Positions 1 through 58,465 of a DNA stretch of 64,000 bases are shown in pieces (within the stretch, counting starts at the first letter, position 1; every line of letters begins with the position of its first letter). The notes under the pieces were generated by a model that was given only the letters and a program-made list of their open reading frames with translations, had not been told where the DNA came from and searched no databases. Source of the DNA: Patescibacteria group bacterium (GTDB lineage: Bacteria > Patescibacteriota > Dojkabacteria > J137); NCBI GenBank assembly GCA_016861265.1, contig BOLA01000001.1, positions 395,569 to 459,568 of the forward strand. Reading direction: 5' to 3'. The translations under genes were made by a program, and so were the position numbers.

Positions 1-251
1 GCAATTTTTAAAGCGTCAGTAAAGTCTGTATGCTCAACTTCTTCAATGAATTTAATTACATCCCCTGCCTTACCGCATCCAAAACATTTAAAAATCTGCA
101 GTGATGGATTTACAGTAAAGGAAGGAGTTTTTTCGGAGTGAAATGGACAGCAGGCCTTATAGTTGGCTCCTGCTTTTTTTAAATCCGGCACATAAGAAGC
201 TATAACGTCTACTATATCAAGTTTTGATTTTATTTCCTCTATGTCTGCCAT
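1..251 (-). CDS. dnaG: DNA primase DnaG, N-terminal CHC2 zinc-finger region (partial, continues beyond window start)
   Basis: Minus-strand translation from the ATG at 251 reads MADIEEIKSKLDIVDVIASYVPDLKKAGANYKACCPFHSEKTPSFTVNPSLQIFKCFGCGKAGDVIKF. This is the classic primase zinc-binding motif (CPFHxEKTPSF...FxCFGCG). The ORF runs off the window edge. Confidence 0.8.
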   Translation of the reverse strand, partial: MADIEEIKSKLDIVDVIASYVPDLKKAGANYKACCPFHSEKTPSFTVNPSLQIFKCFGCGKAGDVIKFIEEVEHTDFTDALKI

Positions 252-44581: not shown

Positions 44582-45898
44582 TTAGATCTTAATTTCAACC
44601 TGTTCGCCGCTTTTCATATCTTTTAGTAGGTACTTCCCTTCTGCCAGTTCATTTTCCCCTAGTATAACAACATAATCTACACTCATTTTATTTGCCTGCT
44701 CAAGAGCCTTTCCCATCCTTTGAACATCTAAACCTACTTTAACAACATTAGTTTCACTTTTCCTTAGTATCGAAGCAAGTTCCAAAATCTTATTGGTTAA
44801 TTTTTCATCAAGCACAGGTAAGTAGTAAGACTTGTACTCACTTGTTGAATTTTTAAATAATCCGTATTCTTCTAAGAATATTTTGGTTGTCTCATCACCG
44901 GGTGCGAAGCCAACTGCAGGAAATGATTGGCCTCCAAAAATACCTGCTAGCCCGTTGTACCTACCACCACCGAATAAAGATCTAAAACTATCTTCAGTCT
45001 TTAACTGCCCTTTTCTTTTTAGATAGTCGCGCCTATCGTAAACTTCAAAGACCATACCGTCGTAATAATCAAAACCTCGAACCATTGATGGGTTATACTT
45101 TATATATTCGCCCAAACCTAGGGTCTCAAGTTTATTAGCAATCTGCATTAAATCTTTAATGCCTTCATTCTCTTTTAAATAATTTTGATAAACATACTCA
45201 AAAGCATCTTCTTCAAGGTTTAAAAAGTCTAGTAAGATTGTTGTATTGTCAATTTTTGCTCCCACTTCCTGTTTTAATCTTAAAACCAATTCATCGTTGT
45301 TTATCTTTCCGAATTTATCTAGTATCCTTGTTGCCTCTGCTACCTTAGAGACATCTGCTTTTAAGAAATCAGTTACGATTGCTTCTATTAATCTTCGATC
45401 GTTATAGTAAACAATAAATTGATCTTTGGTAGCACCAAATTCCTTCATTATTTCTATAGCAAGTTGAAGTATTTCAACGTCGGCCATTAATGAATTGCTC
45501 CCAAAAATATCACAGTTTAGCTGCCAGAATTCCCGATTTCTACCCTTCTGAGGTTTTTCATTTCTTAGGAAGTTGGCAATAGAAAATAGTCGTAAAGGTT
45601 TAGGTGAACTTTCATAAATTCTACTCACCATTCTAGTTACTGAAGGAGTCATTTCGGGCCTTATTGCTAATTCCCGTCCTGCTCTGTCAGTCATTACCAT
45701 TAATTCCTTTCCTCCCACATCTTCACCGGATTTAGCTCTGTAAACATCCGCGGATTCTATTACAGGAGTAAGATATTCTTCATAACCGAAACTCAGGCAT
45801 ACCTTACGCCAAGTATCAAAGATAAATTTTCTCTTTTTATACTCTTCAGGAAACCAATCGCTTGTGCCCTTTGGGGGCATATTTGATATTGTATTCAT
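44582..45898 (-). CDS. hisS: histidine--tRNA ligase
   Basis: N-terminus PKGTSDWFPEE...FGYEEYLTPVIE and motif 2 ELAIRPEMTPSVTRMV are typical of class IIa HisRS. A C-terminal anticodon-binding domain is present. Confidence 0.85.
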   Translation of the reverse strand: MNTISNMPPKGTSDWFPEEYKKRKFIFDTWRKVCLSFGYEEYLTPVIESADVYRAKSGEDVGGKELMVMTDRAGRELAIRPEMTPSVTRMVSRIYESSPKPLRLFSIANFLRNEKPQKGRNREFWQLNCDIFGSNSLMADVEILQLAIEIMKEFGATKDQFIVYYNDRRLIEAIVTDFLKADVSKVAEATRILDKFGKINNDELVLRLKQEVGAKIDNTTILLDFLNLEEDAFEYVYQNYLKENEGIKDLMQIANKLETLGLGEYIKYNPSMVRGFDYYDGMVFEVYDRRDYLKRKGQLKTEDSFRSLFGGGRYNGLAGIFGGQSFPAVGFAPGDETTKIFLEEYGLFKNSTSEYKSYYLPVLDEKLTNKILELASILRKSETNVVKVGLDVQRMGKALEQANKMSVDYVVILGENELAEGKYLLKDMKSGEQVEIKI

Positions 45899-45930
45899 AT
45901 TTTCAATTTTAACATTTAATAATTAAGTAA

Positions 45931-46002
45931 TAAAAAACCCTCCTTTTCATGGAGGGTTCTAATTTATATAGATATAGAAAAGCACCCTCTTTAAAGAGAG
46001 TG
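45931..46002 (-). promoter_or_regulatory. hisS 5' leader with tandem hairpins: upstream stem (cacucucuuu/aaagagggug) and terminator-like stem-loop (aacccucc-augaaaa-ggaggguu + U run) about 35 nt before the hisS AUG; candidate attenuator
   Basis: Read in the hisS sense, an 8-bp GC hairpin followed by UUUUUUAUU sits just upstream of the start. The 3' arm of the upstream hairpin (agagggug) can pair with the terminator 5' arm (acccuc). Confidence 0.4.
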
Positions 46003-46109
46003 AATATGGTTTATCAATGTATTTACGAATAATCTTTTCACATGCATATTATAGCACTATATTAGAGTTTTCTGGTAAAATCCTGAACTGGTAACTAAGG
46101 AGGTAACTT

Positions 46110-46331
46110 ATGAGATTAATGCTTGTTCAACGAAAAGTGGGTGATCCGACTTTGGAACAGATAGAGCGTAACCCACAAGGTCATGTCGAGCCTGTCGCTA
46201 TTATCGTCGTTAATACCGAACTTACCGATGCCGAGATGAACGAGTTAGGACAATCTGTCCTTGCAATTATTGGCGATAAGCCAGTAAATACCGAGGAACT
46301 AAGAGATTTTTACTCAATGTTCATGGGTTAG
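46110..46331 (+). CDS. small hypothetical protein (73 aa) in GC-elevated islet 3
   Basis: Strong SD AAGGAGGT 7 nt upstream of the ATG. GC-rich codons of about 45% GC. Followed by a perfect hairpin terminator. Confidence 0.5.
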   Translation: MRLMLVQRKVGDPTLEQIERNPQGHVEPVAIIVVNTELTDAEMNELGQSVLAIIGDKPVNTEELRDFYSMFMG

Positions 46332-46336
46332 TCTCG

Positions 46337-46362
46337 GCAGGGCGGAGTTTACTCCGCCCTGC
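46337..46362. terminator. intrinsic terminator, perfect 12-bp GC-rich stem
   Basis: gcagggcggagt-tt-actccgccctgc, which lies between the small ORF on the plus strand and the convergent rsmB-like gene on the minus strand. Confidence 0.65.
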
Positions 46363-46369
46363 ACTAAAC

Positions 46370-47317
46370 TTAGAGTTTTACTATCTTCGCAACATAAAAA
46401 GCGGTAAATTCCTCGGTTGGTAAAACTCGTACAGTTTTTAATAAGTCATTATTAAATTTCTTATTTCTATATTCAAGTTTTCCGGATTGAAGCGAATGCA
46501 GATTTAAATTAATATCCATTAATTTGGCATTACTATTCTTCTTTAAGAACCAGTTCACAACTTCTTCATTTTCTTCAATACTGTAAGTACACGTTGAGTA
46601 AATTAAAGTTCCATTTCTTTTAAGCATTTTAAATGCAGAATTTAGCAATCCTTTTTGGAGTTTTGAGATATCTTTTGCATTCGATAGTTTCCACTCTTTA
46701 AGTGAATCGTGTTCGTTAATATTTATTTTTGATTCGGTTGTACATGGTACGTCTACCAAAACTTTGTCAAAATAATTATTATATTCCGGTTTTATAAAAA
46801 CTAATCTATTAGCATCCGCATTAAAAACATTTACATTTACTACACCATTCTCATTTAAATTTTCCTTCAACTTGAAGAATCGATTTCTATTTTTTTCAAC
46901 CGCGGTTACAAAAGATTGGTTATTTGTTAGTGCTTGAATTAAAGATGTCTTACTTCCAGGAGAAGCACACATATCCAAAATTTTTTCATTTGGTTTGGGG
47001 TTTAGTTCAATAACGGGCAAGGCACTTGAAACTTCTTGAATATATATTAAATGTTTACTAAACGCTTCGGTCCTTGATAACGGAATGGATTCCTTAGTAA
47101 CCAAATAAAAATTACTAACTTCTGTTTGTTTAAAAACAATACCTTCACGGCTTAGCATTTCTAGAGACCGTGCTTTATTTGCATCTATCAAAGTATTAAT
47201 TCTAAAAGTTTTTGCTCTGTTAATTGAGTGTGTTGCAAAAACTTTTTCAAAATCAGAATTATATATTTCTAATAACTTGTTCTTAAAACTTTCTAATTTA
47301 TCTTCGTAGGATTTCAT
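46370..47317 (-). CDS. NOL1/NOP2/Sun-family RNA m5C methyltransferase (RsmB/RsmF-like)
   Basis: DMCASPGSKTS (SAM motif I), DVPCTTE and YSTCT (catalytic Cys motifs) are typical of RsmB/Nop2. Confidence 0.75.
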   Translation of the reverse strand: MKSYEDKLESFKNKLLEIYNSDFEKVFATHSINRAKTFRINTLIDANKARSLEMLSREGIVFKQTEVSNFYLVTKESIPLSRTEAFSKHLIYIQEVSSALPVIELNPKPNEKILDMCASPGSKTSLIQALTNNQSFVTAVEKNRNRFFKLKENLNENGVVNVNVFNADANRLVFIKPEYNNYFDKVLVDVPCTTESKININEHDSLKEWKLSNAKDISKLQKGLLNSAFKMLKRNGTLIYSTCTYSIEENEEVVNWFLKKNSNAKLMDINLNLHSLQSGKLEYRNKKFNNDLLKTVRVLPTEEFTAFYVAKIVKL

Positions 47318-47480: not shown

Positions 47481-47654
47481 ATGGCAGTTGCAAAAAGAAA
47501 AACTGTTGCAAAGAGAAAACCAGCTGCAAAAAAAGCAGTTAGAAAGGTTGTTGCAAAGAAGAAGACTGTTGCTAAGAGAAAGCCAGCAGCTCGAAAGACT
47601 GTTGCTAAGAAGGCAACTAGAACAACAGCTAAAAGAAAAACTTCAAGAAAATAA
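47481..47654 (+). CDS. lysine/alanine-rich basic repeat protein (histone H1/Hc1-like nucleoid protein), 57 aa
   Basis: The ATG at 47481 gives MAVAKRKTVAKRKPAAKKAVRKVVAKKKTVAKRKPAARKTVAKKATRTTAKRKTSRK*, a stretch of imperfect tandem repeats. The stop is followed at once by a strong terminator. The ORF track offers a different frame at 47488..47793 that runs through the terminator. Confidence 0.5.
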   Translation: MAVAKRKTVAKRKPAAKKAVRKVVAKKKTVAKRKPAARKTVAKKATRTTAKRKTSRK

Positions 47655-47680
47655 TTTCTTAGAAGTTTTTTTTAACGCTA

Positions 47681-47708
47681 AAAAAATCCCTGCTCGCAGG
47701 GATTTTTT
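47681..47708. terminator. bidirectional intrinsic terminator
   Basis: aaaaaa-atccctg-ctcg-cagggat-tttttt hairpin with an A run and a T run. Confidence 0.65.
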
Positions 47709-47729
47709 ATTACTAATATTTTTAGACGC

Positions 47730-57159: not shown

Positions 57160-57460
57160 AGCACACCTCCAATAAATATTTACGGGCAACGAGTTATATA
57201 ACAACAATATATTTTATACAATTTACTTGGCCATCTAACATGCTATAATTTTTATATGAATAGATACAGAATGTTAAATATAACTATCTTCTGGGCCTAA
57301 GCCCTCTACTTTCATACCTAATCTTAGAAAAACAACTACCTTAACTACGGCTTTATAGCTTAGTTTTAATATATCAAAAGGTTCTAATAACAAGAATCTG
57401 CTTTTGAAAATCATAATCCGGCGATTAAGTTGTTATAATCTATATAATTATTATAAAAAT

Positions 57461-58465
57461 ATGACAAATACAAAAAGAATTCTAACAGGAGACCGACCAA
57501 CTGGAAAAATGCATTTGGGCCATTACGTAGGCTCTCTACAGAATAGGGTTAAATTACAAGATGAATACGAGACCTTTATTATGGTCGCAGATGTTCAAGC
57601 CCTGACAGATAATTACGATAATCCAAAAAAGATTCAAGATAATATTCTCGAAACTACTATGGATAACTTAGCATCTGGGGTAGATCCTAAAAAAGCAACC
57701 TTTTTTATACAGTCTCAAATTCCCGAAATTGCTGAATTGACAGTTTTCTTTATGAATTTAGTGACTCATAATCAAGTATTACGAAATCCAACTGTAAAGA
57801 CCGAGATTGCTCAAAAGAAGTTTGGTGAAAGTGTTCCATTTGGGTTTGTAGCGTATCCTGTAAGTCAAGCAGCTGATATCCTTGTGCTAAGAGCTGGATT
57901 GGTTCCAGTAGGCAACGACCAAGCCCCAATGATTGAATTAGCTAGCGAAATATCTGATAGATTTAATAAAACATATAAAACGAATATCTTCCCAAAAGTA
58001 GAAGGCTATTATAGTGAAGCCGGACGACTTATTGGCACAGATGGGAATGCAAAAATGAGCAAATCCTTAGGTAATGCAATACTATTAAGTGATTCCGAAG
58101 AGGAAGTTATTGCCAAGGTAAAGAAAATGTACACCGATCCTAATAGAATAAGGCCTACAGATCCAGGGAAAGTGGAAGGCAACCCTGTATTCATTTACCA
58201 TGATTTATTCAACCCAGATAAAAACGAAGTTGAAGACTTAAAACAAAGGTATTTAGTTGGAAAAGTTGGGGATGTCGAAGTAAAGGATAAATTATCAAAA
58301 GCAATTAATCTGTATCTAGATCCAATTAGGGAAAGAAGAAAGCTATACGAGACAAACCCTCAAATGGTAATCGACATTCTAAAGGAAGGTACACAAAAGG
58401 TTCGACAAGAAGCAAAACTAACACTAAAAATGGTCAGAGAGGCAATGGGTATAAACTACTTTTAA
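57461..58465 (+). CDS. trpS: tryptophan--tRNA ligase
   Basis: [22 protein letters not shown] (HIGH-type motif) and [10 protein letters not shown] (KMSKS). The ORF track starts at 57404. The Met at 57461 (MTNTKRIL) matches TrpRS N-termini. Confidence 0.85.

What the first reader, a model, noticed from the sequence alone, without database searches (positions are those of the whole stretch)
45899..46109. Candidate transcription attenuator in the hisS leader (alternative hairpins + short His-codon ORF), not a T-box
Read in the hisS sense, the leader contains an upstream hairpin (cacucucuuu/aaagagggug) and then a terminator (aacccucc-augaaaa-ggaggguu followed by UUUUUUAUU). The terminator sits only about 35 nt before the hisS AUG.

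The 3' arm of hairpin 1 (gagggu) is complementary to the 5' arm of the terminator (acccuc). The two structures are therefore mutually exclusive, which is the core logic of an attenuator.

An 18-codon ORF, MHVKRLFVNTLINHIHSL*, ends inside hairpin 1. Its two His codons (CAU, CAC) lie on the 5' arm. That arrangement is what a histidine-sensing leader peptide would need.

I could not find a T-box consensus (AGGGUGGNACCGCG), and the leader is only about 150 nt long.

One caveat applies to the short ORF. Its ATG directly abuts the only -10-like hexamer (TATAAT at 46048-46053, minus sense), so the ORF would have to be leaderless or use another promoter.
Basis: partly seen in the sequence, partly recalled or inferred. 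Interest (0 to 1): 0.58.

Follow-up and report, generated by a model that had tools for sequence, protein, structure and literature searches.

The report
Histidine-sensing leader peptide attenuator before hisS
Upstream of the histidyl-tRNA synthetase gene of an uncultivated Dojkabacteria (CPR) bacterium lies a conserved mini-gene rich in histidine codons with switchable RNA hairpins, most likely a classic ribosome-mediated attenuator, a well-known mechanism found here in a little-studied lineage.

Summary

Comparative data support the attenuator reading. The module lies directly upstream of hisS in the window and in 20 related loci (14 distinct sequences, HisRS identity 52-92%), whatever the upstream gene is. 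It is absent from about 155 other CPR hisS loci.

Every copy has the same parts:
- An extended -10 box 6-8 nt before the start codon, so the ORF is predicted to be leaderless. In the window the conserved start is the in-frame GTG at 46041, not the ATG.
- A 15-17 codon ORF ending ..N-H-(H)-(H)-x-x-TAA, with the stop codon in the hairpin-1 loop.
- An antiterminator pairing that becomes the MFE once segment 1 is masked.
- One or two terminators.

It is not a T-box and not an Rfam His_leader.

The main caveat is a conserved -10-like box (TGtTAAAAT) 7 nt before the hisS ATG. It predicts a second promoter downstream of the terminator, so the attenuator may only add to basal expression. Covariation is weak and nothing is experimentally tested.

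The design is already known (pheM; leaderless aaRS leader peptides in Streptomyces). This is a new member in a new phylum. A similar Trp-codon short ORF precedes trpS.

The parts
46048..46056 (-). P1: extended -10 promoter TGcTATAAT (TG 46056-46055, hexamer 46053-46048) for the leader transcript
   Evidence: A TGnTATAAT-type box lies 6-8 nt upstream of the leader start codon in all 14 distinct homologous leaders. L081 and L165 also have a TTGACT -35 box.
45991..46041 (-). Leader short ORF, predicted leaderless: GTG(46041-46039) KRLFVNTLINHIHSL TAA(45993-45991); 16 codons
   Evidence: An ORF of 15-17 codons is kept open in all relatives, and length changes are whole codons. The stop is always TAA and always in the hairpin-1 loop. 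The N-terminal half is not conserved and the C-terminal ..N/K-H-x-H.. is.
46000..46008 (-). Regulatory His codons CAT (46008-46006) and CAC (46002-46000), separated by ATT
   Evidence: 13 of 14 distinct leaders have 2-4 His codons at this place, and CAT/CAC synonymous switches occur. His is 1.45% of codons in the window.
45983..46002 (-). Hairpin 1 (segments 1:2), CACUCUCU-UUAA-AGAGGGUG, with the stop codon in the loop
   Evidence: dG -9.6 kcal/mol. It is conserved in all relatives, with 85-88% of cells paired.
45961..45982 (-). Conserved U-rich linker CUUUUCUAUAUC... directly after hairpin 1; inferred pause or weak-termination tract and loop of the antiterminator
   Evidence: The TTT.TATA columns are invariant in alignments A1 and A3. 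Hairpin 1 plus this tract is flagged as terminator-like. The same ACTTTCTATACC motif follows the hairpin of the trpS leader.
45952..45989 (-). Antiterminator (segments 2:3): GAGGGU 45989-45984 pairs with ACCCUC 45957-45952
   Evidence: It is the MFE of the 2..3 segment in all 12 sequences tested, at dG -5.5 to -14.6 (window -10.7, z -3.5). 84% of cells are paired against 41-64% when slid.
45925..45960 (-). Intrinsic terminator T1 (segments 3:4), AGAACCCUCC-AUGAAAA-GGAGGGUUUU plus a U-run
   Evidence: dG -14.9. It is conserved in all relatives. Relative to L161 it looks like a fusion of the two tandem terminators present in most relatives.
45906..45914 (-). P2: predicted extended -10 box TGtTAAAAT, 7 nt before the hisS ATG (a leaderless hisS promoter downstream of the terminator)
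   Evidence: A -10-like hexamer lies 5-9 nt before the hisS ATG in all loci, including those without the leader. Genome-wide, -10-like hexamers at spacer 5-8 occur in 12/40 operon-first genes and 2/19 operon-internal genes.
44582..45898 (-). hisS, histidyl-tRNA synthetase (438 aa), the regulated gene
   Evidence: Pfam tRNA-synt_His and HGTP_anticodon; homologues.

Best explanation
This is a ribosome-mediated (leader-peptide) transcription attenuator that senses charged tRNA-His and controls read-through into hisS.

Proposed sequence of events:
1. A strong extended -10 promoter (P1) starts a leaderless transcript at or next to the GTG at 46041.
2. A 70S ribosome translates the 16-codon ORF.
3. 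RNA polymerase transcribes hairpin 1 and the conserved U-rich tract, where it probably pauses (inferred).
4. If His-tRNA-His is plentiful, the ribosome reaches the UAA in the hairpin-1 loop. Its footprint (about 12-15 nt 3' of the P site; established knowledge) covers segment 2 (AGAGGGUG). Segment 3 then pairs with segment 4, the terminator forms, and transcription stops 35 nt before hisS.
5. If His-tRNA-His is scarce, the ribosome stalls with CAU or CAC in its A site. It then covers segment 1 but not segment 2. GAGGGU pairs with ACCCUC, the terminator cannot form, and polymerase reads into hisS.
6. Without translation, 1:2 and 3:4 both form and transcription terminates.

In most relatives a second terminator follows. 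There the same logic extends as a chain: 1:2, 3:4, 5:6 switch to 2:3, 4:5.

A second predicted promoter (P2) next to the hisS ATG would give basal, leaderless hisS expression.

Shown by computation: the sequence elements, their conservation, the folding energies and the geometry. Inferred: the transcription start, translation, pausing, the response to histidine, and translation of hisS from the read-through RNA.
For: Conservation and linkage to hisS
- The module is conserved in 14 distinct sequences from 21 loci, at HisRS identity 92% down to 52%.
- L016 was not in the training set and scores 70 bits with model R1.
- The module stays with hisS while the upstream gene changes. That gene is an RsmB-type methyltransferase on the same strand, a divergent 73-aa ORF, or other genes. 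It is therefore not simply another gene's terminator.
- It occurs once in the window and in none of about 155 other CPR hisS loci (989 kb searched; next-best hits <=30 bits).

The short ORF
- It is 15-17 codons long and all length changes are whole codons.
- The stop is always TAA in the hairpin-1 loop.
- It has 2-4 His codons in 13 of 14 leaders, against 1.45% His in the genome.
- The conserved AAC-CAY-CAY block lies outside any helix, so codon identity explains it better than structure does.
- The -10 box lies 6-8 nt before the start codon in all copies.

Structure and energetics
- Hairpin 1 plus terminator: 85.6% of cells paired against 44-60% when slid. Five pairs have changes on both sides (1/500 shuffles).
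- L172 has lost one G or C in segments 2, 3 and 4 together.
- Hairpin 1 is -6 to -10.7, the antiterminator -5.5 to -14.6 and the terminator -8.4 to -19.3 kcal/mol. The antiterminator is the MFE when segment 1 is removed.
- With two terminators, 2:3 plus 4:5 is the MFE in 3 of 6 lineages, and 4:5 is -10.6 to -16 kcal/mol in all six.

Context and precedent
- SD-like motifs are rare: 3/59 genes, and 2/19 operon-internal genes. Initiation at the SD-less hisS start on a long RNA is therefore plausible.
- Precedents are a His leader peptide predicted upstream of a hisS paralogue in bacilli (PMC2965389) and leaderless leader peptides upstream of leuS, trpS, alaS and thrS in Streptomyces lividans (PMC8079986).
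- A parallel Trp-codon short ORF precedes trpS in the window and in a relative.
Against: - There are no transcript, ribosome or starvation data. Everything is sequence inference.
- Covariation is weak. The GAGGG/CCCUC core never varies, and the antiterminator helix shows no change on both sides. Alignment A5 was fitted to the structure.
- A conserved -10-like box (TGtTAAAAT) lies 7 nt before the hisS ATG and downstream of the terminator. Similar boxes precede hisS in loci that lack the leader. This box type marks operon-first genes in this genome. hisS can therefore probably be transcribed independently of the leader.
- hisS has no SD, and the short-ORF stop is 95 nt upstream, too far for simple translational coupling. 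Translation from read-through RNA is assumed, not shown.
- There are only 2 non-adjacent His codons in the window and 1 in L166.
- In L161, L163 and L081 the second terminator remains the MFE even with segment 1 masked.
- L168 has weakened hairpin-1 and antiterminator pairings.
Confidence: 0.7

Rival explanations
1. The module is an autonomous small transcription unit: promoter, leaderless mini-ORF, terminator. It encodes a small peptide or a small RNA that acts in trans, and hisS is expressed only from its own promoter P2. There would be no cis control of hisS by read-through.
For: - P1 and the terminator(s) make a complete unit of about 110 nt.
- P2 is predicted downstream of the terminator and is present even where the leader is absent.
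- Most relatives have two tandem terminators, which looks like firm termination.
- Attenuator-derived RNAs and leader peptides can act in trans in Sinorhizobium, per the abstracts of PMC6614838 and PMC7298713 listed.
Against: - The peptide is conserved only at the His codons and in length, not along its sequence. That fits a sensor, not a functional peptide.
- The strict adjacency to hisS across at least five different upstream contexts argues for a cis link.
- The three- to five-fold repetition of mutually complementary segments has no purpose in a plain terminator, yet it gives a stable antiterminator in every lineage.
Confidence: 0.15
2. The hairpins are just terminators or insulators for the upstream gene, the RsmB-type methyltransferase that ends right before the module in most relatives. 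On this view the short ORF is a chance reading frame.
For: - In L001, L075, L163, L166 and L168 the methyltransferase stop codon lies 15-90 nt before P1, with no other terminator in between.
- Hairpin 1 and T1 are both flagged as terminator-like.
Against: - In the window and in L161/L162 the methyltransferase has its own terminator (about 46330-46355), and a divergent 73-aa ORF lies in between.
- In L172 the upstream gene is on the other strand. In L171 and L016 the upstream genes are different. The module is intact in all of these.
- Chance does not explain the invariant in-frame TAA in the loop, the fixed spacing from -10 box to start codon, the whole-codon indels, or a His content about ten times the genomic frequency.
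Confidence: 0.05
3. The leader is a ligand-, tRNA- or protein-binding RNA. It could be a divergent T-box, a riboswitch, or a HisRS-binding operator like the E. coli thrS leader. The conserved linker UUUCUAUA or the hairpins would be the binding site, and the short ORF would be irrelevant.
For: - The linker after hairpin 1 is more conserved than an antiterminator loop needs to be (invariant TTT.TATA).
- A similar motif follows the hairpin of the trpS leader, which hints at a shared factor or signal.
Against: - No T-box, His_leader or any riboswitch family appears, even at E<=10.
- The leader is too short for a T-box (about 110 nt) and has no conserved UGGN bulge or specifier loop.
- The hairpin loops are not conserved and do not resemble the tRNA-His anticodon loop.
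- A motif shared by the His and Trp leaders cannot provide amino-acid specificity. The cognate codons can.
Confidence: 0.05

Closest known systems
pheM-pheST attenuator of E. coli, and the classic trpL/hisL leader-peptide attenuators (established knowledge)
   Same: It has a short ORF with cognate regulatory codons and a 1:2 / 2:3 / 3:4 alternative-pairing scheme. An intrinsic terminator lies just before the regulated gene. The stop codon is placed so that a terminating ribosome masks segment 2. As with pheM, the target is the cognate aminoacyl-tRNA synthetase.
   Different: There is no sequence or covariance-model similarity: Rfam His_leader gives no hit, and Phe_leader gives 25 bits against a 55-bit cut-off. 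There are only 2-4 His codons, against 7 in enterobacterial hisL. The ORF is predicted to be leaderless, with no SD. Many copies have two tandem terminators. A second promoter is predicted after the terminator.
Leaderless leader peptides upstream of aaRS genes in Streptomyces lividans (LeuL2-leuS, TrpL2-trpS, AlaL-alaS, ThrL-thrS; PMC8079986)
   Same: A leaderless mini-ORF of 12-22 codons carries one to a few cognate codons. It is followed by hairpin(s), with or without a U stretch, directly upstream of a monocistronic aaRS gene. TrpL2 has a single Trp, like the trpS short ORF seen here.
   Different: The phylum differs (Actinobacteria against Patescibacteria/Dojkabacteria), as does the genome composition (high GC against 33% GC). 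No hisS case is listed there. Those cases have mapped transcription starts, whereas here the start is only predicted.
His leader peptide predicted upstream of the hisS paralogue and hisZ in bacilli (Naville & Gautheret 2010, PMC2965389)
   Same: It is a predicted histidine leader peptide with a premature terminator in front of a hisS-family gene.
   Different: It is an unrelated sequence. It regulates a paralogue and hisZ rather than the (apparently) sole hisS. It is not described as leaderless.
Poly-Cys leaderless short-ORF attenuators of mycobacteria (Canestrari et al., 10.1101/834739)
   Same: A leaderless sensory short ORF in which ribosome stalling at cognate codons remodels downstream RNA structure.
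   Different: [quoted passage not shown] Here the switch is between an antiterminator and an intrinsic terminator, which is transcriptional control.
T-box leaders of hisS in Firmicutes (Rfam RF00230)
   Same: They have the same physiological job: raising hisS expression when tRNA-His is uncharged, through a terminator/antiterminator switch.
   Different: There is no T-box sequence or structure here. Sensing would be by a translating ribosome, not by direct tRNA binding.

Membership tests
Leader-peptide (ribosome-mediated) transcription attenuators | Short ORF in the leader carrying codons for the cognate amino acid | tested here: met
   A 16-codon ORF carries CAT and CAC. 13 of 14 distinct homologues have 2-4 His codons near the 3' end. 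The genomic His frequency is 1.45%.
Leader-peptide (ribosome-mediated) transcription attenuators | Intrinsic terminator between the short ORF and the regulated gene | tested here: met
   A 10-bp stem plus U-run lies at 45960-45925 with dG -14.9. It is conserved in all homologues.
Leader-peptide (ribosome-mediated) transcription attenuators | Antiterminator pairing mutually exclusive with both the upstream hairpin and the terminator | tested here: met
   GAGGGU pairs with ACCCUC. This pairing is the MFE of the 2..3 segment in 12 of 12 sequences. 84% of cells are paired against 41-64% when slid. No covariation is seen because the core is invariant.
Leader-peptide (ribosome-mediated) transcription attenuators | Geometry: a ribosome at the regulatory codons frees segment 2, and a ribosome at the stop codon masks it | tested here: met
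   The His codons lie 7-15 nt before the stop codon. Segment 2 starts 3-7 nt after the first base of the stop codon in all homologues. A footprint of about 12-15 nt 3' of the P site is taken from established knowledge.
Leader-peptide (ribosome-mediated) transcription attenuators | Translation of the short ORF and amino-acid-dependent read-through demonstrated | not testable with these tools
   This needs transcript mapping or coupled transcription-translation assays.
Leader-peptide (ribosome-mediated) transcription attenuators | The regulated gene depends on the promoter upstream of the terminator | tested here: inconclusive
   A conserved -10-like box lies 7 nt before the hisS ATG (45914-45906) and predicts an independent leaderless promoter. 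Read-through could still add to expression.
Leaderless leader peptides (Actinobacteria type) | Transcription starts at the start codon of the short ORF | tested here: inconclusive
   An extended -10 box lies 6-8 nt before the start codon in 14 of 14 sequences. The same spacing is enriched at operon-first genes. No start-site data are available.
Rfam His_leader (RF00514) | Match to the covariance model | tested here: not met
   There is no hit at gathering score or at E<=10 in 45700-46400.
T-box leader (RF00230) | Match to the covariance model (specifier loop, T-box sequence) | tested here: not met
   There is no hit at gathering score or at E<=10.
Rfam Phe_leader (RF01859) | Match at the gathering score | tested here: not met
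   The score is 25.2 bits against a cut-off of 55, with E 0.07. The alignment is carried by the terminator hairpin only.

The most novel reading that the evidence does not exclude
The hisS leader may be one member of a lineage-specific set of attenuators in Dojkabacteria. In this reading, each aminoacyl-tRNA synthetase gene is preceded by a leaderless cognate-codon mini-ORF whose stop codon sits in the loop of a GC hairpin followed by a shared UUUCUAUA tract. That would be a 'ribulon' for tRNA charging in organisms that cannot make their own amino acids.

In the two-terminator form the switch would work as a chain of three hairpins that re-register (1:2, 3:4, 5:6 to 2:3, 4:5). Output would be a switch between a leaderless mRNA from P2 and a 5'-extended mRNA from P1.
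Probability: 0.3. Interest if true: 0.65.

Novelty: new member of a known kind. Interest (0 to 1): 0.5.

Why it matters
Gene regulation in CPR/Patescibacteria is almost unstudied, because most members are uncultivated and known only from metagenomes. This locus gives a concrete, testable cis-regulatory element in that group. It suggests that these reduced, amino-acid-scavenging bacteria monitor tRNA charging with the same ribosome-based logic as E. coli and Streptomyces, built from unrelated sequence.

It also gives sequence-level evidence that leaderless initiation, including at GUG, and extended -10 promoters are in common use in this lineage, and that SD sequences are rare. That matters for gene calling in CPR genomes.

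The mechanism itself is textbook, so the value lies in phylogenetic breadth and annotation rather than in a new principle.

Tried and rejected
- T-box, His_leader or any Rfam family: no hits at gathering score in the window, and none relevant at E<=10.
All relatives place the start 6-8 nt after the -10 box.
- A second ORF driven by the SD-like GGAGGG of segment 2, with an ATG 12 nt downstream in L001 and L163: not conserved. The codon is ACG in L075 and there is no ATG in the window.
- A HisRS or tRNA-mimic operator: the loops are not conserved and do not resemble an anticodon loop.
- Terminator of the upstream methyltransferase: rejected because the module persists where the upstream gene is divergent or different.
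- Plain MAFFT alignment (A1) put the terminator arm out of register. I used an N-padded hand-registered alignment (A3) and then a model-fitted alignment (A5).
- Search for more members: a regular expression and models R1 and R2 found none outside the hisS leaders. The weak hit at window 47633-47711 is the tandem terminator of a small basic-protein gene.
- Other His-rich short ORFs upstream of hisS in Falkowbacteria-type loci: these are antisense to a neighbouring gene's start and have no hairpins, so I treated them as background.
- Pairing of the RNA 5' end (GAAAAG) with the linker (CUUUUC): it appears in 5 MFE folds but is not clearly maintained in the other lineages. It is left open.
- Other aaRS genes in the window: Pfam scans of 16 proteins found only hisS and trpS.

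Full report
**What is there**

hisS lies on the minus strand at 44582-45898 (438 aa; Pfam tRNA-synt_His and HGTP_anticodon). Read in hisS sense, the 211-nt upstream region holds these elements in order:

- TGcTATAAT, with the hexamer at 46053-46048.
- An ATG (46047) and an in-frame GTG (46041).
- A short ORF ending ..AAC CAT ATT CAC TCT CTT TAA, with the stop at 45993-45991.
- Hairpin 1: CACUCUCU-UUAA-AGAGGGUG (46002-45983).
- A U-rich linker.
- The terminator AGAACCCUCC-AUGAAAA-GGAGGGUUUU plus a U-run (45960-45925).
- TGtTAAAAT (45914-45906), then 7 nt, then the hisS ATG.

No Rfam family reaches its gathering score anywhere in the 64-kb window. No T-box or His_leader appears even at E<=10. 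The best sub-threshold hit is Phe_leader at 25 bits against a 55-bit cut-off, carried by the terminator.

**Organism and context**

HisRS homologues place the window in Candidatus Dojkabacteria (CPR/Patescibacteria). The window has 33.5% G+C.

Upstream of the leader lies a divergent 73-aa ORF (46110-46331, strong AAGGAGG, no Pfam hit). Beyond it is an RsmB-type methyltransferase gene (46370-47317) with its own terminator.

**Comparative evidence**

I collected hisS loci from genome and metagenome collections and by exact-protein look-ups.

- The leader module is present directly upstream of hisS in 20 loci besides the window, giving 14 distinct sequences. HisRS identity ranges from 92% to 65%, plus L016 at 52%.
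- It is absent from L173/L084 (66%), L174 (61%), L002 (59%) and about 150 more distant CPR loci.
- Covariance model R1 was built without L016 and finds it at 70 bits. True members score 53-87 bits. Nothing else in 989 kb of loci or in the window exceeds 30 bits. The 30-bit hit is an ordinary tandem terminator.
- The upstream neighbour differs between lineages: the methyltransferase on the same strand, the divergent 73-aa ORF, or unrelated genes in L169, L171, L172 and L016. The module therefore travels with hisS and is not another gene's terminator.

**The short ORF**

Every copy keeps an ORF of 15-17 codons. All length differences are whole codons. The stop is always TAA and always in the hairpin-1 loop. 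The ORF ends ..N/K-H-(H/x)-(H/x)-x-x. Examples:

- MKRSVLNKTLNHHSSL*
- MNIDFIKSTLNHHDLP*
- MSTKGLGYTTNHHHLP*
- MNKGFINSSKHHHSL*
- MTNLTNSNLNHHMPL*
- MKNISLTTLNHHHSH*

Further points:

- 13 of 14 leaders have 2-4 His codons. L166 has one.
- His is 1.45% of codons in the window's genes.
- The N-terminal half is not conserved. That fits a sensor, not a functional peptide.
- The conserved AAC-CAY-CAY block lies outside all helices, so codon identity explains it better than structure does.

**Leaderless start**

An extended -10 box (TGnTATAAT or a near variant) lies 6-8 nt before the start codon in all 14 sequences. In the window this points to the GTG at 46041, giving 16 codons. The ATG abutting the -10 box is not the start.

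The wider genome agrees:

- Only 3 of 59 genes have an SD-like 4-mer.
- A -10-like hexamer peaks at a spacer of 6 nt in 9 of 59 genes, against a 1.9% background.
- The signal is concentrated at operon-first genes (12/40) rather than operon-internal genes (2/19), as expected for promoters of leaderless mRNAs.

**Structure**

- On a hand-registered alignment, hairpin 1 plus terminator are 87% paired, against 45-62% when the partner is slid.
- On the model-fitted alignment of 14 sequences they are 85.6% paired against 44-60%. Five pairs change on both sides (1 of 500 shuffles). This alignment leans towards the structure.
- The antiterminator is 84% paired against 41-64% when slid, but shows no covariation because GAGGG/CCCUC is invariant. 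A three-way constraint would be expected to suppress covariation, but the evidence remains weak by the usual standard.
- L172 lost one G or C in segments 2, 3 and 4 together: GGAGGU, ACCUCC, GGAGGU.
- Hairpin 1 is -6 to -10.7 kcal/mol, the antiterminator -5.5 to -14.6 and the terminator -8.4 to -19.3. The antiterminator is the MFE of the 2..3 segment in 12 of 12 sequences. This ordering is that of classical attenuators.

**Geometry**

This step is inferred from known ribosome footprints.

- With CAU or CAC in the A site, the ribosome covers segment 1 but not segment 2.
- With UAA in the A site, it covers segment 2.
- Stalling at His codons therefore favours 2:3 and read-through. Smooth translation, or no translation, favours 3:4 and termination.

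**Two terminators**

Most relatives have a second hairpin, GCCCUCC...GGAGGGC-UUUUU, after the first. The window's single terminator looks like a fusion of the two, by deletion between the GGAGGG repeats when compared with L161. Because all odd segments resemble CCCUCC and all even ones GGAGGG, a chain 2:3 plus 4:5 can replace 1:2, 3:4 and 5:6.

- With segment 1 removed, this chain is the MFE in L075, L165 and L169.
- The 4:5 pairing is -10.6 to -16 kcal/mol in all six lineages.
- In L161, L163 and L081 the second terminator stays favoured.

**Main caveat**

TGtTAAAAT lies 7 nt before the hisS ATG and is conserved. Loci without the leader also have a -10-like box 5-9 nt before hisS. hisS is therefore probably also transcribed as a leaderless mRNA from a promoter downstream of the terminator.

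The attenuator would then add inducible transcription from the stronger P1 rather than act as the sole control. hisS would have to be translated from an internal, SD-less start. This is plausible, because 17 of 19 operon-internal genes lack SD-like motifs, but it is unproven. I regard it as limiting rather than refuting.

**Comparison with known systems**

The logic is that of trpL, hisL and pheM. The closest published parallels are:

- Leaderless leader peptides upstream of leuS, trpS, alaS and thrS in Streptomyces lividans (PMC8079986).
- A His leader peptide predicted before a hisS paralogue in bacilli (PMC2965389).
- Leaderless poly-Cys short ORFs in mycobacteria, which act on translation (10.1101/834739).

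There is no sequence homology to any Rfam leader. My library searches found no paper on attenuation in CPR bacteria. That is an absence of hits in the library, not proof of novelty. I class this as a new member of a known kind.

**A parallel at trpS**

The only other aaRS gene found in the window is trpS (57461-58465). It is preceded by TGcTATAAT, then 6 nt, then an ATG (57256) that opens MNRYRMLNITIFWA*.

- The Trp codon is in the 5' arm, and TAA is in the loop, of a small GGGC/GCCC hairpin.
- The hairpin is followed by ACUUUCAUACC.
- A relative with 80% TrpRS identity has TGtTACAAT, 6 nt, GTG, then MKKKIFTTITSFFWA*. It has the same hairpin and the motif ACUUUCUAUACC.
- No clear downstream terminator was found there.

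This suggests a shared design for aaRS leaders in this lineage, but it rests on two sequences.

**Verdict**

The finding is real and the attenuator interpretation is the best supported one, at about 0.7. It is a textbook mechanism in an unusual host. Interest is moderate.

Noticed in passing
window 57241-57330 (+), upstream of trpS (57461-58465); L175 1372-1460: A predicted leaderless mini-ORF lies upstream of trpS: TGcTATAAT, 6 nt, ATG, then MNRYRMLNITIFWA*. Its single Trp codon is in the 5' arm, and TAA is in the loop, of a GGGC/GCCC hairpin followed by ACUUUCAUACC. It is conserved in a relative with 80% TrpRS identity (MKKKIFTTITSFFWA*, same hairpin and motif). No clear terminator follows. 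The layout resembles the hisS leader and Streptomyces TrpL2.
   Followed up: partly
window, all gene starts: SD-like motifs are rare: 3 of 59 genes. A -10-like hexamer, often TGn-extended, peaks 6 nt before start codons and is concentrated at operon-first genes (12/40 against 2/19). Many genes of this Dojkabacteria genome are therefore probably leaderless, which matters for gene calling.
   Followed up: partly
window 46110-46331 (+): A 73-aa ORF with a strong AAGGAGG ribosome-binding site and no Pfam match is inserted between the methyltransferase gene and the hisS leader, divergent from hisS. It is present in the window and in L161 (74 aa) but absent in most relatives, so it is a lineage-specific insertion of unknown function.
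   Followed up: no
window 45925-45943 compared with L161: The window's single terminator looks like a fusion of the two tandem terminators seen in its closest relative, by deletion between the two GGAGGG repeats. This turns a two-terminator leader into a one-terminator leader.
   Followed up: partly
window 45961-45982 (-) and all homologous leaders: The linker after hairpin 1 (CUUUUCUAUAUC) has invariant TTT.TATA columns, more conserved than an antiterminator loop needs to be. It may be a pause or weak-termination tract. In five lineages it can also pair with GAAAAG at the RNA 5' end. It remains unexplained.
   Followed up: partly
window 47481-47711 (+): A small Lys/Ala-rich basic protein gene (MAVAKRKTVAKRKPAAKK..., about 57 aa) is followed by two tandem terminator hairpins. 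It gave the only weak extra hit (30 bits) of the leader model.
   Followed up: no
L016 2650-2775 and 2900-2960: In the distant Dojkabacteria locus that keeps the hisS leader, a GC-rich long inverted repeat (gtcattgcg...cgcaatgac) precedes P1. Extra hairpins (CCUUCUCC/GGAGAAGG and others) lie between the terminator and hisS.
   Followed up: no
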